From the sequence record PZ049338.1: a stretch of DNA of 64,000 nucleotides. The stretch is one strand, 5' to 3'. Shown piece after piece: positions 792 through 63,704 of the stretch (positions within the stretch are counted from its first letter, which is position 1; each line of letters opens with the position of its first letter). This stretch comes from a phage. Made by a program: the position numbers and the translations under genes. Below the pieces are notes generated by a model, which worked only from the letters and a program-made list of their open reading frames with translations, had not been told where the DNA came from and made no database searches.

Positions 792-813
792 GTTAATCCA
801 CATATATTAAGAG
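792..813 (+). promoter_or_regulatory. Copy D of conserved 22-bp motif GTTAATCCACATATAT(A/T)AAGAG; candidate phage-specific promoter
   Basis: Near-identical 22-mer also found at 21677-21698, 44433-44454 and 63683-63704 (all on - strand); this copy faces rightward toward the late block. Confidence 0.3.
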
Positions 814-1560: not shown

Positions 1561-1722
1561 TTATCAAAGTCAACAATCAAACGATGATTATCAAAGACGA
1601 TTATCAAACGATAACTATCAAAGACGATTATCAAACGATAACCATCAAAGGATAACTATCAAAGGATAACTATCAAAGGATAACTATCAAAGGATAACTA
1701 TCAAAGGATAACTATCAAAGGC
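1561..1722. repeat. Tandem array of 14-bp units GATAACTATCAAAG (5 perfect copies preceded by degenerate copies); iteron-like
   Basis: Direct reading of perfect head-to-tail 14-mers at ~1651-1720 and variants (cgattatcaaa, gataaccatcaaag) upstream. Confidence 0.8.
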
Positions 1723-21676: not shown

Positions 21677-21698
21677 CTCTTTATATATGTGGATTAAC
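21677..21698 (-). promoter_or_regulatory. Copy A of conserved 22-bp promoter-like motif, pointing leftward into the 21610-21634 hairpin
   Basis: Reverse complement reads GTTAATCCACATATATAAAGAG. Confidence 0.3.
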
Positions 21699-24845: not shown

Positions 24846-25100
24846 TTAATCACAACTAGAGCTAGAGCCAGAGTCACAGCTAGAACTACCACTGTCGTAA
24901 TTATCACTAGATGTTGCGATTGTAGTGGAAGTGGAGATACCTGCATCATCAGAAGTTACAGTTGCACGCTTAGTTGTCTTCTTAGCTACAACCTTCTTAT
25001 CTTCAGGGGTAGGGATGGTGCCATAACGAATCTTCTCGTTACAACGCATCAGTTCAAACATATTGCTATGAGTTTCTTTACCACATGCTACACAAGTCAT
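24846..25100 (-). CDS. Hypothetical protein (84 aa), Ser-rich C-terminus
   Basis: ORF in operon context. Confidence 0.3.
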   Translation of the reverse strand: MTCVACGKETHSNMFELMRCNEKIRYGTIPTPEDKKVVAKKTTKRATVTSDDAGISTSTTIATSSDNYDSGSSSCDSGSSSSCD

Positions 25101-25369
25101 TAATGTGCTCCTATAAAAGATTTATTTGAGATACTAGTTGGGCCGGTACAGTAATGAGAACCTGTAAAGTAACCACCACAAATTTGACAAGTGTAATCCA
25201 TGCTGGAGAACGGTTGTCCTGTGTTATTTACTGGAATCACTTCGCCATTACGGCCACGATTTGCTCGTACAAACCGCTTTGCAGCGGCAAGTAGAACATC
25301 ATAACCCATCTCTGGGCTTAATCCTTCAGACACAGCGATTGCTCGCTCTAACTGGGATAGTGTGTACAT
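25100..25369 (-). CDS. Hypothetical Cys-containing protein; start uncertain (25369 to 25537)
   Basis: Longest ORF overlaps ligase 3' end by 158 nt; an internal Met at ~25369 avoids the overlap. Confidence 0.3.
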   Translation of the reverse strand: MYTLSQLERAIAVSEGLSPEMGYDVLLAAAKRFVRANRGRNGEVIPVNNTGQPFSSMDYTCQICGGYFTGSHYCTGPTSISNKSFIGAH

Positions 25370-44432: not shown

Positions 44433-44454
44433 TCTCTTTATATATGTGGATTAA
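44433..44454 (-). promoter_or_regulatory. Copy B of conserved 22-bp promoter-like motif
   Basis: Reverse complement GTTAATCCACATATATAAAGAG followed by AGATTCTTAATG (start codon). Confidence 0.35.
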
Positions 44455-46865: not shown

Positions 46866-46907
46866 TGTTGTTACCTTTTCAGTGGGTTGTTGGAAATCAA
46901 TATTATA

Positions 46908-46927
46908 AGAGGCTCCGAAGAACCTCT
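46908..46927 (-). terminator. Intergenic UUCG-tetraloop hairpin (weak terminator or processing site)
   Basis: On - strand AGAGGTTC-TTCG-GAGCCTCT; downstream tract only moderately U-rich. Confidence 0.3.
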
Positions 46928-46938
46928 GAAATATGGAC

Positions 46939-49409: not shown

Positions 49410-49465
49410 GGATAATAATCCTCTAAGTTCATTTAAATGGGGCCGAAGCCCCTGTTTGTTAATAC

Positions 49466-55507: not shown

Positions 55508-55568
55508 TGGGGATTGCTCTCCTAGTGAGGTTAGTTAATGGCTCTCGTAAGAACCCTTAGTAACTTCG

Positions 55569-56848: not shown

Positions 56849-57118
56849 ATGAACCTCCTAAGTATTTAATAAAGGGCTCCGTAGAACCCTTGATAATTAC
56901 TCAGCATCAACAGTGAGTGAAATGCCGAATGCGATTAGGGCAAGAACTACAGCCGCTATTGCATACCAATCCATAATCACTCCTTATTCCATTTAACATT
57001 AAATGAGATAAGGCACGCCGCTGCCAGTGCAGTTTCAACAACAGCGATCACATGATTACCAACAGTCACATCGTATATCGCAAATCCCAACCAGAATGCT
57101 GTAAGGTACAGATATAGT

Positions 57119-58998: not shown

Positions 58999-59249
58999 TA
59001 GAAGTCCTTAAAATAGGAGGCGGGGACGAGCCGCCTTTACCCTATGAGTTAAGTTTGCATGTAAGACCTAACAATCGGATGCCTTCAGCGGAATAAGCGT
59101 TATGCGTATCCTGCACTAAACTCCCGCCCCCTTAGTGGGCTGGGTGTATAAAGGGTAACGCCCTTATGGGCTAGTTACATGAATGTTAGTTTGATAGGAG
59201 ATCTGACGTCCTATCTCAAAGGGCTCTCAGAAGAACCCTTTACGATAGT

Positions 59250-60881: not shown

Positions 60882-61103
60882 TTAGTAGGTTAAGCCTATG
60901 ATTTTAGCATTAGGCTGTGGGTTGACTTCGGCATTTGGACGGAAACCATCAACTGAACCTGTGTGAAGGTTGACGCAAGTGATATAACCAGCGGTTACAG
61001 TGTCAGATTTAATCCAAAAACCATTAGAGTGTTGGAAAGCACTGCCATTTGCAAGGGCTGACAGTTCAACTGTTGGTGCTGATGCTTTAGCTTCAAATTG
61101 CAT
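60882..61103 (-). CDS. Small protein, member of 6-copy paralog family
   Basis: FQHSNGFWIKSD...CVNLHTG core. Confidence 0.35.
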   Translation of the reverse strand: MQFEAKASAPTVELSALANGSAFQHSNGFWIKSDTVTAGYITCVNLHTGSVDGFRPNAEVNPQPNAKIIGLTY

Positions 61104-61308
61104 TGTCGAGTGACTCCGTTACGAAAGTTGCCTTGCGACCTTGTGCATCAGTTACTTCATACACATCTTCGCTGTAATTAGGGATGAACCAGTCATGCCC
61201 GTCATGGAGCACCACACGGATGTGGGTTGGAGTGTGTTCAACGAGGATATAATCCTCAAGGAACTCAAACTCAGGGATGTTTGAACCAACACAGGTTGCT
61301 GTTGCCAT
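61093..61308 (-). CDS. Hypothetical protein (71 aa)
   Basis: ORF. Confidence 0.3.
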   Translation of the reverse strand: MATATCVGSNIPEFEFLEDYILVEHTPTHIRVVLHDGHDWFIPNYSEDVYEVTDAQGRKATFVTESLDNAI

Positions 61309-61444
61309 TTCTTATCCTTTGTTTGTTGTTGATTTACATAAGCTCACACCTAAGACAATGCACTCATTCAAGTGGAATGCAGAGGGGCGACAATACAAAG
61401 TGTATGAGCTTATGTAAAGCCCGCCAAATGGCGAGCAATACTCT

Positions 61445-61600
61445 TACTTGGTCAGATACAGATCTTCATAAGACCAGTTACCCTGACGTTTTACTGTCAG
61501 AGCGCGACCACGCAGCCAGAAGGATTCAACTTTCAGAGCGCCATTTGCTACGGCATCCATACGCTCAGGACGGTTCATTGCTTTAGTTGCTTTAGACATG
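61445..61600 (-). CDS. Small ORF (51 aa), not in track
   Basis: ATG ORF MSKATKAMNRPERMDAV... read on - strand. Confidence 0.2.
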
Positions 61601-61661
61601 ATTTACTCTCTTAGTGAGTGGGTTGATTTTACAATGTATAAGGAAACGTCACAGTAGTGAT

Positions 61662-61898
61662 TTACTTAATTCTTGAGCGGTGTGCCAGAACCATATCGTA
61701 CATTGGTACGACTTTGGTAGTAGGTACAATATATACAGGATAGCCGGTGTCAAGATTTACAGCATTGATACGTGAATTAGCATCAGTAACTATTGATGTG
61801 ATTCTGACATAAATCTCACCAGTCTCTCGTGCAAAGCAAGCACCAACTGACACTGTATCAAATGGAATCAGCTCTTTGGCTTCTTTTACAATTTCCAT
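61662..61898 (-). CDS. Small protein, member of 6-copy paralog family
   Basis: FARETGEIYVRIT...NAVNLDTG core. Confidence 0.4.
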   Translation of the reverse strand: MEIVKEAKELIPFDTVSVGACFARETGEIYVRITSIVTDANSRINAVNLDTGYPVYIVPTTKVVPMYDMVLAHRSRIK

Positions 61899-61900
61899 TG

Positions 61901-62143
61901 CTACCCCTTAACCTTTGAACGGTCAGTGATAACTAATTCAGGTCTTTTAATAACTTGGTCAGCAATCTTGAAAGGTTCAATAGTACCTGTCTCAAGACAC
62001 ACTGAGTTATATAGTGTTTTTGATGCACCGACAACACCATCAGTCTTGAGGTAGATGTCACCATCATACTCAAAACACTCACCGATGATTAAAGAGCCAA
62101 ATGGTGTTGTATTTTGTTTAGGTTTTAAGAACTCCATCACCAA
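61901..62143 (-). CDS. Small protein, member of 6-copy paralog family
   Basis: FEYDGDIYLKTD...NSVCLETG core. Confidence 0.4.
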   Translation of the reverse strand: MVMEFLKPKQNTTPFGSLIIGECFEYDGDIYLKTDGVVGASKTLYNSVCLETGTIEPFKIADQVIKRPELVITDRSKVKG

Positions 62144-63682: not shown

Positions 63683-63704
63683 CTCTTATTATATGTGGAT
63701 TAAC
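63683..63704 (-). promoter_or_regulatory. Copy C of conserved 22-bp promoter-like motif
   Basis: Reverse complement GTTAATCCACATATAATAAGAG followed by GTATTCTTATG (start codon). Confidence 0.35.

What the first reader, a model, noticed from the sequence alone, without database searches (positions are those of the whole stretch)
61334..61417. 13-bp perfect inverted repeat with 58-bp spacer in an intergenic gap
TTACATAAGCTCA (61334-61346) and its reverse complement TGAGCTTATGTAA (61405-61417) flank an AT-rich spacer between early ORFs. This could be an operator for a dimeric regulator or a long-range RNA stem. It is not seen elsewhere in the window.
Basis: seen in the sequence. Interest (0 to 1): 0.35.

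Follow-up and report, generated by a model that had tools for sequence, protein, structure and literature searches.

The report
Conserved phage RNA hairpin, not operator
The inverted repeat is real and forms the base of an 86-nt RNA hairpin in the early mRNA of a phiEco32-related phage. The same invariant hairpin tip sits on equally long stems of unrelated sequence in a few other phages, so this is an undescribed RNA element and not a DNA operator.

Summary
The repeat exists. It is 14 bp perfect and 17 bp with one mismatch that is G·U on the gene-sense (minus) strand (61333-61349 / 61402-61418). It is the only perfect inverted repeat of 11 bp or more with a 3-150 nt spacer in the window.

The window is a relative of the plasmid-dependent phages Lu221 and Hi226 (Grimontviridae, kin of phiEco32). 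The repeat lies between two minus-strand early genes, directly after a terminator-like hairpin.

In 11 close relatives only 5 of 105 element positions vary, and none of the 34 arm positions, against 195 of 601 third-codon positions in flanking genes.

The 23-nt tip (UGCAUUC-CACUUGAAU-GAGUGCA) recurs in some Kuraviruses (ES17 group), in Serratia phage Eta and in prophage-like contigs. Each time it sits on a 20-22 bp lower helix of unrelated sequence that still pairs, and in two groups this helix folds far better on the sense strand.

A covariance model built only from the prophage copies finds the window element (33 bits) and nothing else in the window. Rfam has no match.

It therefore acts as RNA. 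The most likely role is an RNase III-type processing or stability site that also presents a factor-binding hairpin. This mechanism is inferred, not shown. The operator reading is not supported.

The parts
61444..61599 (-). Upstream early gene of 51 aa, a homologue of phiEco32 gp112 (phrog_13305, function unknown). The element always follows this gene in the window group and in the ES17 group.
61419..61436 (-). Short GC-rich hairpin GCUCGCC-AUUU-GGCGGGC, 7 nt after the stop codon, followed by UUUACAU. It looks like a terminator but has a weak U-tract. It abuts the long stem with no spacer.
   Evidence: Among 11 relatives only loop positions 61426-61427 vary. It fails the terminator scan's U-tract rule.
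61402..61418 (-). 5' arm of the long stem in the sense RNA (UUUACAUAAGCUCAUAC).
   Evidence: No variable positions among the 34 arm positions (both arms together) in 11 relatives.
61382..61401 (-). 5' interior strand. It has a few extra pairs that extend the lower helix to about 22 bp, then an 11-nt pyrimidine-rich internal-loop strand UGUCGCCCCUC (61382-61392).
   Evidence: The C/U polymorphism at 61393 sits opposite a G (C-G in 7 sequences, U·G in 4).
61359..61381 (-). Apical hairpin UGCAUUC-CACUUGAAU-GAGUGCA (7 bp including a fixed U·G, 9-nt loop). This is the invariant core shared with the ES17-group Kuraviruses, Serratia phage Eta and the prophage-like contigs.
   Evidence: Polymorphic sites 61366 and 61374 are the first and last loop bases.
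61350..61358 (-). 3' interior strand (UUGUCUUAG). Two of its bases are unpaired opposite the 11-nt loop strand, which makes the internal loop asymmetric.
61333..61349 (-). 3' arm of the long stem in the sense RNA (GUGUGAGCUUAUGUAAA).
61306..61332 (-). Unstructured CA-rich leader (AUCAACAACAAACAAAGGAUAAGAA) with the Shine-Dalgarno AAGGA (61315-61319) and the start codon (61306-61308). Gene content changes immediately after this point in some relatives.
   Evidence: Relatives L016 and L023 have a 31-34 aa peptide gene inserted here.
61390..61418 (-). Sigma-70-like hexamers TTTACA (61413-61418), 17-nt spacer, TATTGT (61390-61395), matching 9 of 12 positions. They overlap the 5' arm and may be coincidental.
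   Evidence: 12 such sites in 8 kb against 17.1 expected. Not conserved in ES17 or Eta.
61093..61308 (-). Downstream early gene of 71 aa (phrog_3249, function unknown).

Best explanation
The inverted repeat is the lower helix of an ~86-nt structured RNA. This RNA is made when early transcription on the minus strand reads through the weak terminator-like hairpin that follows the gp112-like gene.

The RNA has four parts:
- a lower helix of about 22 bp, whose two arms are the inverted repeat;
- an asymmetric internal loop with a pyrimidine-rich 5' strand;
- an invariant 7-bp apical stem containing a fixed U·G pair;
- a 9-nt loop.

Shown: the structure is selected for, it is read on the sense strand, and it belongs to a small family of hairpins found in unrelated phages. 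In that family the tip sequence is fixed and the lower helix only has to pair and be 20-22 bp long.

Inferred: a two-turn double-stranded helix next to an asymmetric loop in a polycistronic phage mRNA is the form of an RNase III-type processing signal. I propose that host RNase III cuts the lower helix in read-through transcripts. That would uncouple the fate of the upstream cistrons, which keep the short hairpin as a 3' cap, from the downstream cistrons, whose ribosome-binding site lies in the unstructured leader 10 nt beyond the stem. Cutting would also free or present the apical hairpin, whose invariant sequence points to recognition by a specific protein or RNA partner.

Confidence that it works as RNA and not as a DNA site is about 0.85. 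Confidence in the RNase III mechanism is about 0.4.
For: Constraint: in 11 relatives, 5 of 105 positions vary (0 of 34 in the arms), against 195 of 601 third-codon positions in the six flanking genes. The neighbouring 62-bp gap is much more variable. The five variable sites are two bases in the loop of the short hairpin, the two end bases of the apical loop, and one C/U opposite G.

Homologues:
- The same core lies downstream of the gp112 homologue and its terminator in ES17, KM01, PH444 and others. Their outer stem is different (AGGUAAAUCACC / GGUGGUUUACCU).
- Serratia phage Eta has a 20-bp stem of yet another sequence.
- 11 IMG/VR prophage-like contigs carry it with two further stem types.

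Strand: sense versus antisense folding energy is -32.2 vs -19.9 kcal/mol for ES17, -33.6 vs -21.3 for Eta, -39.0 vs -26.5 for L048 and -28.7 vs -25.0 for the window. All wobble pairs are G·U on the sense strand.

Lower-helix length: 22, 21, 20 and 20 bp in the four contexts.

Covariance model: model R1 was built from the prophage copies only. It finds window 61333-61418(-) at 33.2 bits, E 6e-7, with no other window hit.

Covariation on the model alignment:
- 95.6% of lower-helix cells are paired, against 37-50% with slid partners and 69% (maximum 74%) in column shuffles.
- Between groups, 9-13 pairs are changed on both sides and almost all remain paired.
- The 7 apical pairs never vary.
Against: - There are no transcript or cleavage data. 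RNase III cutting is inferred from shape alone.
- The phage has only one such hairpin, whereas T7 has many RNase III sites.
- RNase III does not need a specific tip, so the invariant apical hairpin calls for an extra, unknown partner.
- The element is absent from most Kuraviruses (whole in 7 of 90 records). It is therefore accessory, not part of a core expression scheme.
- In ES17 the preceding terminator looks strong, so little read-through RNA may be made there.
- The covariation counts come from an alignment fitted to the model, and they rest on only 4-5 independent lineages.
Confidence: 0.45

Rival explanations
1. The hairpin is the precursor or carrier of a small trans-acting RNA or decoy. 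In this reading it is an accessory, moron-like module whose invariant tip binds or titrates a host or defence factor, and the long stem is only a stable scaffold.
For: - Distribution is patchy and accessory: it is whole in 7 of 90 Kuravirus records and occurs in unrelated phages.
- In the prophage-like contigs it sits in gene-poor islands next to STnc100-like and DicF-like sequences.
- In Eta it is followed about 45 nt later by a hairpin and a T7 run, as in a small-RNA gene.
- The tip sequence is invariant while the stem is free to change.
Against: - In the window and in ES17 there is no promoter or terminator of its own. It lies inside an operon, 20-25 nt from the next start codon.
- Targets complementary to the loop are not enriched in the window.
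- The core has no match in E. coli genomes or GTDB genomes, so it does not mimic a known host RNA.
- No shared neighbouring protein was found.
Confidence: 0.25
2. The gap is a terminator-promoter junction. The short hairpin stops upstream transcripts, and TTTACA-17-TATTGT restarts transcription for the downstream genes. The inverted repeat would then be secondary, for example a site that modulates this promoter.
For: - The hexamers match 9 of 12 positions at 17-bp spacing, directly after a terminator-like hairpin.
- The only polymorphism in the -10-like hexamer is at its third position, which I recall (not tested here) to be the least conserved position of the -10 consensus.
- IMEP8 keeps only the 5' arm plus 12 nt in front of a different gene.
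Against: - Matches of this quality are no more frequent than in shuffles (12 found, 17.1 expected).
- No promoter-like site is found at the homologous place in ES17.
- In Eta the A of the -10-like hexamer is missing.
- A transcript started there would lack the 5' arm, yet the arms are the most constrained part (0 of 34 variable) and they covary between groups.
Confidence: 0.15
3. It is a DNA operator. The two arms would bind a phage or host regulator, as a dimer or through looping, to control early transcription.
For: A perfect 14-bp inverted repeat in an intergenic gap. One arm overlaps the sigma-70-like -35 hexamer.
Against: - The arm centres are 71 bp apart (about 6.8 helical turns), and neither arm is palindromic on its own.
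- Arm sequences are unrelated in the homologous elements, while pairing is preserved.
- Mismatches are G·U on one strand only, which means nothing for duplex DNA.
- There is no second copy of the arm anywhere in the genome.
Confidence: 0.05
4. It is a miniature mobile or recombination module, either MITE-like with terminal inverted repeats or a PeSL-like cassette. It would mark a hotspot of gene shuffling and have no RNA function of its own.
For: - Presence/absence polymorphism at one precise junction in Kuraviruses: phiEco32 has 22 nt where ES17 has about 77 nt.
- A truncated copy sits at a recombination junction in IMEP8.
- Gene content changes right after the element in L016 and L023.
Against: - There is one copy per genome.
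- The terminal repeats differ between lineages instead of being conserved.
- There is no target-site duplication.
- The arm pair is absent from IMG/VR and GTDB, and the five metagenome matches are unrelated palindromes.
- Strand-specific G·U pairs and strong purifying selection on every part point to function.
Confidence: 0.07

Closest known systems
RNase III processing signals of the phage T7 early region (R0.3, R0.5, R1, R1.1, R1.3)
   Same: Both are intergenic hairpins inside a polycistronic early mRNA of a lytic podophage of enterobacteria. Both have about two turns of helix interrupted by an asymmetric internal loop, and both sit just upstream of the next ribosome-binding site. The T7 features are from my own knowledge of the T7 literature.
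   Different: T7 has a series of sites that resemble each other, whereas this phage has one. Here the tip is invariant across unrelated phages while the helix sequence is free. Cleavage has not been shown here.
Lambda sib / tI retroregulator of int
   Same: In both, a terminator hairpin is followed by sequence that forms an RNase III substrate only in read-through transcripts. Terminated and read-through RNAs therefore have different fates. The lambda features are established knowledge and were not tested here.
   Different: In sib the terminator stem itself is extended. Here the short hairpin and the long stem are separate, abutting helices. The regulated gene is unknown.
Correia/NEMIS elements of Neisseria and ERIC elements of enterobacteria
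   Same: All are inverted-repeat elements of about 100 nt in intergenic spacers of operons. They are present or absent at the same locus in relatives and are co-transcribed into long hairpins. For NEMIS the hairpins are cut by RNase III (own knowledge).
   Different: Those are multi-copy families with conserved terminal repeats and, for Correia, a TA target duplication. This element is single-copy, its arms are not conserved, and it has an invariant tip.
PeSL (promoter-early stem-loop) cassettes of T4-type phages
   Same: Both combine a stem-loop with a promoter-like sequence at the boundaries of variable early-gene cassettes.
   Different: PeSLs are repeated many times per genome and are defined by a conserved early promoter. 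Here there is one copy and the promoter-like hexamers are not conserved.
STnc100 (RF02076) / PasD prophage small RNAs
   Same: In the prophage-like contigs the hairpin lies immediately upstream of STnc100-like units (sub-threshold Rfam hit of 37 bits in L035). STnc100 and PasD are described as prophage-encoded sRNAs in bioRxiv 10.64898/2026.05.13.724894.
   Different: The window element has no STnc100-like part and gave no Rfam hit. The relation is one of neighbourhood, not homology.

Membership tests
Operator of a dimeric DNA-binding regulator | Two half-sites in inverted orientation close enough for one dimer (centres about 1-2 helical turns apart) | tested here: not met
   The arm centres (61340 and 61411) are 71 bp apart. 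Each arm is non-palindromic.
Operator of a dimeric DNA-binding regulator | Half-site sequence conserved among homologous sites, and symmetric on both strands | tested here: not met
   Lower-stem letters are 22-39% identical between the four independent groups (67% between the two prophage stem types), while 9-13 doubly changed pairs per comparison stay paired. Mismatches are G·U on the sense strand only.
Intrinsic (Rho-independent) terminator (short hairpin 61419-61436) | GC-rich stem-loop followed directly by a U-rich tract | tested here: inconclusive
   The 7-bp stem and 4-nt loop are present, and the stem is invariant with a variable loop. The tail UUUACAUA has only 4 U in 8, so the scan does not list it. 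The ES17 counterpart passes the scan.
Sigma-70 promoter | -35 and -10 hexamers at 16-18 bp spacing, better than chance | tested here: inconclusive
   TTTACA-17-TATTGT matches 9 of 12 positions. Such sites are not enriched over shuffles (12 found vs 17.1 expected).
Sigma-70 promoter | Hexamers kept in homologous elements | tested here: not met
   No promoter-like site in ES17. The -10-like hexamer is disrupted in Eta.
phiEco32 gp36-type middle/late promoter | AATGTA / tAATGTAtA element about 6-8 nt upstream of the start site (PMC12276001, PMC4281155) | tested here: not met
   The arm has TATGTA (5 of 6). The motif is not enriched and not placed before genes in this window. This phage has a different recurring 19-bp motif.
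RNase III processing signal | Double-stranded RNA helix of about two turns (about 20 bp or more) in a transcript | tested here: met
   The lower helix is 22 bp in the window, 21 in ES17, 20 in Eta and 20 in the prophage copies. It lies on the gene-sense strand.
RNase III processing signal | Cleavage by RNase III in vivo or in vitro; absence of antideterminant base pairs at the proximal and distal boxes | not testable with these tools
   No transcript-end data are available, and the cleavage site is unknown, so box positions cannot be assigned.
MITE / terminal-inverted-repeat mobile element | Multiple dispersed copies sharing the same terminal repeats, with target-site duplication | tested here: not met
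   Single copy in the window and in the rest of the relative's genome. The arm pair is absent from IMG/VR and GTDB, and only unrelated palindromes matched in metagenomes. No duplication flanks the element.
Any Rfam 15 family | Covariance-model match | tested here: not met
   Nothing at gathering score in the whole window. Only noise at E up to 10 around the element. Homologues give only weak miRNA-precursor-like noise.
New hairpin family defined here (invariant tip on a covarying 20-22 bp helix) | Core UGCAUUC-N9-GAGUGCA with a fixed U·G, an asymmetric internal loop with a pyrimidine-rich 5' strand, and a lower helix of 20-22 bp, all on one strand | tested here: met
   Window 61333-61418(-) scores 33.2 bits (E 6e-7) with a model built without it. 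All features are present.

The most novel reading that the evidence does not exclude
The hairpin is a previously undescribed, horizontally shared phage RNA module. It consists of a sequence-invariant 23-nt tip displayed on a covarying two-turn stem. It occurs in lytic C3 podophages, a temperate Serratia phage and prophage small-RNA islands. Its real role would be to bind or decoy a specific host or defence factor, or to be released as a small RNA, and not merely to process the local mRNA. In the prophage copies it occupies the 'variable insert' position of a much more widespread conserved RNA scaffold, present in about 147 phage records and about 10% of E. coli genomes. That scaffold may itself be an unrecognised RNA family carrying exchangeable hairpin cargo.
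Probability: 0.3. Interest if true: 0.75.

Novelty: new variant of a known kind. Interest (0 to 1): 0.55.

Why it matters
Phages related to phiEco32 are a model for takeover of host RNA polymerase, but nothing is known about the RNA-level control of their long early operons. This element is a clean candidate for study:
- It is single-copy and strongly constrained.
- It has natural presence/absence variants (ES17 versus phiEco32).
- It has natural compensatory stem variants.

Its processing and partner could therefore be tested directly.

The shared invariant tip in unrelated phages suggests a common factor that recognises it. The Lu221/Hi226 group is also being considered for removing resistance plasmids (PMC10782986), so its early gene regulation has practical interest.

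Tried and rejected
- **Other copies of the arms.** Searches with mismatches found none in the window or in the rest of the relative's genome.
- **Exact two-arm pattern in public collections.** No hits in IMG/VR or GTDB genomes. The 5 metagenome hits are unrelated longer palindromes.
- **Similarity to plasmids.** Checked because the phage is plasmid-dependent; no match.
- **Host mimicry.** The core has no match in 5,426 E. coli genomes or in GTDB representatives.
- **Known RNA genes.** Rfam and tRNA scans found nothing.
- **phiEco32-type sigma promoter (AATGTA) in the arms.** Rejected; the motif is not used in this window.
- **Positional homologue in phiEco32, EP335, 7-11 and pSal-SNUABM-01.** Absent.
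- **Invertible switch.** All 11 relatives have the spacer in the same orientation.
- **Small ORF inside the element.** None is conserved; the ATG is lost in one haplotype.
- **CRP, IHF and boxA/boxB resemblances.** Checked by eye only; weak, and dropped.
- **Loop-complementary targets in the window.** At chance level.
- **A protein partner encoded next to every copy.** No gp112 homologue lies near the Eta or prophage copies. The flanking proteins have no known function.
- **Protein-based retrieval of more distant relatives.** Largely failed for these very short proteins.

Full report
**1. The observation**

The repeat is in fact 14 bp perfect (61333-61346 / 61405-61418). It extends to 17 nt with one mismatch, with 52 nt between the arms.

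It is the only perfect inverted repeat of 11 bp or more with a 3-150 nt spacer in the window. In 200 dinucleotide-preserving shuffles a 14-mer repeat appeared in 1% of cases, and 13-mer repeats averaged 0.13 per shuffle.

The arm sequence does not recur in the window beyond chance. It does not recur in the remaining 13 kb of the closest complete genome either. The spacer is not AT-rich: 44.8% GC against 43.5% for the window.

**2. Setting**

All genes from about 21.7 kb to the end of the window run on the minus strand. The window is 97% identical over this region to phage PKM.Lu.22.1 and 89% identical to Salmonella phage PKM.Hi.22.6. These are the plasmid-dependent C3 podophages Lu221 and Hi226 (PMC10782986), family Grimontviridae, kin of phiEco32.

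Read on the sense (minus) strand, the 135-nt gap contains, in order:
- the stop codon of a 51-aa gene, a homologue of phiEco32 gp112;
- 7 nt of spacer;
- a short hairpin GCUCGCC-AUUU-GGCGGGC (61436-61419);
- with no spacer, the 5' arm UUUACAUAAGCUCAUAC;
- 52 interior nt;
- the 3' arm;
- a CA-rich unstructured leader with AAGGA, and the AUG at 61308.

The strong consensus sigma-70 promoters of the early region lie elsewhere, at window 984-955 and 872-843 on the minus strand. The element therefore sits several kb into a long early operon.

**3. Constraint in close relatives**

Ten further contigs encode the identical 51-aa protein, and all of them carry the element.

Across the 11 sequences, 5 of 105 positions of the short hairpin plus long hairpin vary. 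None of the 34 arm positions varies. By comparison, 195 of 601 third-codon positions vary in the six flanking genes. The other nearby gap (61600-61661) is far more variable.

The five variable sites are:
- two bases in the loop of the short hairpin;
- the first and last base of the apical loop, perfectly linked as C..U or A..C;
- one C/U opposite a G.

All are neutral for the predicted sense-strand fold. Immediately after the element, gene content changes in two relatives, where a 31-34-aa hydrophobic peptide gene is inserted.

**4. Distant homologues settle the level of action**

A BLAST search with the gap found a 29-nt interior match in a minority of Kuraviruses: ES17, KM01, PH444, SR02, myPSH1131 and myPSH2311. 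The match lies at the same place, downstream of the gp112 homologue and its terminator.

In these phages the outer inverted repeat has a different sequence (AGGUAAAUCACC / GGUGGUUUACCU, with a U·G pair). The interior keeps the hairpin CUGCAUUC-CACAUGAAU-GAGUGCAG.

phiEco32 itself has the same terminator and the same downstream leader but only 22 nt in between. Only 7 of 90 Kuravirus-type records have the whole element. IMEP8 keeps only the 5' arm and 12 further nt at a recombination junction.

The exact 23-nt core also occurs elsewhere:
- in Serratia phage Eta, upstream of the holin gene, on a 20-bp stem of yet another sequence;
- in 11 IMG/VR prophage-like contigs with two further stem types.

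The core is absent from 185,579 GTDB representative genomes and from 5,426 E. coli genomes.

**5. Common anatomy**

In every context there are four shared features:
- a lower helix of 20-22 bp: 22 in the window, 21 in ES17, 20 in Eta and 20 in the prophage copies;
- an asymmetric internal loop whose 5' strand is pyrimidine-rich (CGCCCCUC, UUUUCCCAUC, CACCACCUUA, GUCGAACCU);
- an invariant 7-bp apical stem with a fixed U·G pair;
- a 9-nt loop in which GAA is conserved.

Folding is strand-specific:

| Source | Sense (kcal/mol) | Antisense (kcal/mol) |
|---|---|---|
| ES17 | -32.2 | -19.9 |
| Eta | -33.6 | -21.3 |
| L048 | -39.0 | -26.5 |
| Window | -28.7 | -25.0 |

**6. Covariance model and covariation**

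I built a covariance model from the prophage copies alone. It finds window 61333-61418 on the minus strand at 33.2 bits (E about 6e-7), with no other hit in the window. It also finds the ES17-group and Eta copies at 28-36 bits. It finds nothing in phiEco32, EP335, 7-11 or pSal-SNUABM-01.

On the model alignment of 18 distinct sequences:
- 95.6% of lower-helix cells are standard pairs, against 37-50% when partners are slid and 69% (maximum 74%) in column shuffles.
- Between the four independent groups, 22-39% of stem letters are identical; the two prophage stem types share 67% (24 of 36).
- Between those four groups, 9-13 pairs are changed on both sides, and nearly all stay paired.

Two caveats apply. 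The alignment is fitted to the model, and there are only four or five independent lineages.

Rfam 15 has no match for the window element. The homologues draw only weak hits that look like miRNA precursors.

**7. What this means for the readings**

*DNA operator for a dimeric regulator.* This is not supported. The arms are 71 bp apart centre to centre, neither is palindromic, their sequence is not conserved while pairing is, and the wobble positions make sense only in RNA of one strand.

*Sigma-70-like hexamers.* TTTACA-17-TATTGT overlaps the 5' arm and matches 9 of 12 positions. Such matches are no more common than in shuffles. They are not conserved in ES17 or in Eta, where the A of the -10-like hexamer is missing. 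A transcript started there would lack the very arm that is most constrained. A weak internal promoter may still coexist.

*MITE-like reading.* This fits the presence/absence pattern. It fails on copy number, on conservation of the ends and on target duplication.

**8. Mechanism (inferred)**

The element is transcribed only when RNA polymerase reads through the short hairpin, whose U-tract is weak in the window. A two-turn helix next to an asymmetric loop in a polycistronic phage mRNA is the form of RNase III signals in T7, and of the read-through-specific sib site of lambda (established knowledge, not tested here).

I therefore propose RNase III cleavage of the lower helix. This would leave the upstream RNA capped by the short hairpin and the downstream cistrons with a short unstructured leader.

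RNase III does not explain why the tip is invariant across unrelated phages. That points to a second, sequence-specific partner. Together with the accessory distribution, it keeps open a trans-acting or decoy role. No protein partner is encoded next to all copies, and the neighbouring proteins have no known function.

**9. Side finding**

In the prophage-like contigs the whole hairpin occupies the variable position of a conserved scaffold: ACAACAGGTAAGAGCATT [insert] AATGCTCTTTCCGTTGTGGTGAATGCGCAGGCTGATGCGC ... ACCGGCCACCACAAC.

This scaffold occurs with quite different inserts in about 147 phage records of many families and in 536 of 5,426 E. coli genomes. It is unannotated, and in one case it occurs in tandem. 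Its 3' part resembles the prophage sRNA STnc100 below the Rfam threshold. I could not identify it.

**10. Verdict**

- The RNA-stem alternative is right, and the operator reading is wrong.
- The element belongs to a small, undescribed family of phage RNA hairpins.
- The specific function is inferred and needs the experiments listed under next steps.

Noticed in passing
window 795-813 (+), 21677-21695 (-), 44434-44452 (-), 63683-63701 (-): A 19-bp motif AATCCACATATATAAAGAG occurs four times (0-2 mismatches; 0.02 expected by chance). Two copies end 9-10 nt before a start codon. One lies about 60 nt upstream of the bidirectional terminator between the convergent gene blocks. It is a candidate phage-specific promoter/RBS cassette. 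phiEco32's AATGTA promoter motif is not enriched in this phage.
   Followed up: partly
L036 7695-7815; L040 238-340; L041 231-340; L042 210-345 and 444-529: A conserved RNA-like scaffold carries a hypervariable 40-75-nt insert inside its stem: ACAACAGGTAAGAGCATT ... AATGCTCTTTCCGTTGTGGTGAATGCGCAGGCTGATGCGC ... ACCGGCCACCACAAC. It is found in about 147 phage records of many families and in 536 of 5,426 E. coli genomes, unannotated, and sometimes in tandem. Its 3' part is STnc100-like below the Rfam threshold.
   Followed up: partly
window 1572-1721: A tandem array of about 11 copies of the 14-bp unit AACTATCAAAGGAT lies in the gene-poor region next to the early promoters. It resembles iterons and could be an origin or a regulator-binding array.
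   Followed up: no
window 984-955 (-) and 872-843 (-): Two near-consensus sigma-70 promoters (TTGACA-18-TATAAT and TTGACA-18-TAGAAT) point leftwards out of the window. They are the likely start of the early operon in the circular map. The same pair is present in OQ829281 at 4571-4430.
   Followed up: no
window gaps 46866-46938, 49410-49465, 55508-55568, 56849-56976, 58999-59249 (minus strand): Many intergenic gaps of the minus-strand block carry related short hairpins with UUCG-type loops (GGGTTCTTCGGAGCCC and variants), usually followed by only a short T run. They could be leaky terminators or RNA end-protecting hairpins.
   Followed up: no
window 58999-59249: A 251-nt gene-free gap is packed with hairpins. 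It may hold a non-coding RNA, but there is no Rfam hit.
   Followed up: no
L031 48-130 and 383-463 (Serratia phage Eta, NC_021563 about 24896-25311): Eta has the same core hairpin upstream of its holin gene, followed about 45 nt later by a hairpin and a T7 run, as in a small-RNA gene. There is also a second model hit 250 nt upstream. A short hairpin with loop GAAGCAGA precedes the long hairpin, as in the prophage copies, where the loop is GAAGAGA.
   Followed up: partly
L003 2167-2244 (phiEco32) vs L028 568-655 (ES17): The 22 nt that replace the element in phiEco32 (AATTAAGGGACAGCTCTTACTT) can form a mini-hairpin UAAGGG-ACAG-CUCUUA. This resembles the base of the prophage-type stem (UAAGAGC...GCUCUUU). 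It may be a deletion remnant of a long hairpin.
   Followed up: no
L025 1645-2355 (phage 7-11) and L003 2585-2942 (phiEco32): Large gene-free gaps lie next to the gp112 homologue: 711 nt downstream of it in 7-11, with tRNA-like T-arm and acceptor pieces around 2190-2320, and 358 nt upstream of it in phiEco32. These may be unannotated RNA genes.
   Followed up: no
window 60882-61103, 61662-61898, 61901-62143 (minus strand): Three small early genes (73, 78 and 80 aa) around the element hit the same PHROG families (6570, 7431, 7832, 16423). They form a local paralogous family of unknown function.
   Followed up: no
L016 2793-3040; L023 2582-2677: In two relatives a gene for a 31-34-aa hydrophobic peptide (IKFVGKIVIGFFVVCTLFVGCVSLANLGIS-like) is inserted directly between the element and the 71-aa gene. 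L016 additionally has a small CxxC...CxxC ORF there.
   Followed up: no
window 61330-61341, 61599-61610, 61658-61669: The octamer GTAAATCA (minus strand) occurs three times within 340 nt: at the end of the 3' arm, in the RBS of the 51-aa gene, and at the stop codon of the 78-aa gene. It also starts the 5' arm of the ES17-type element (AGGTAAATCACC). Significance unknown.
   Followed up: no
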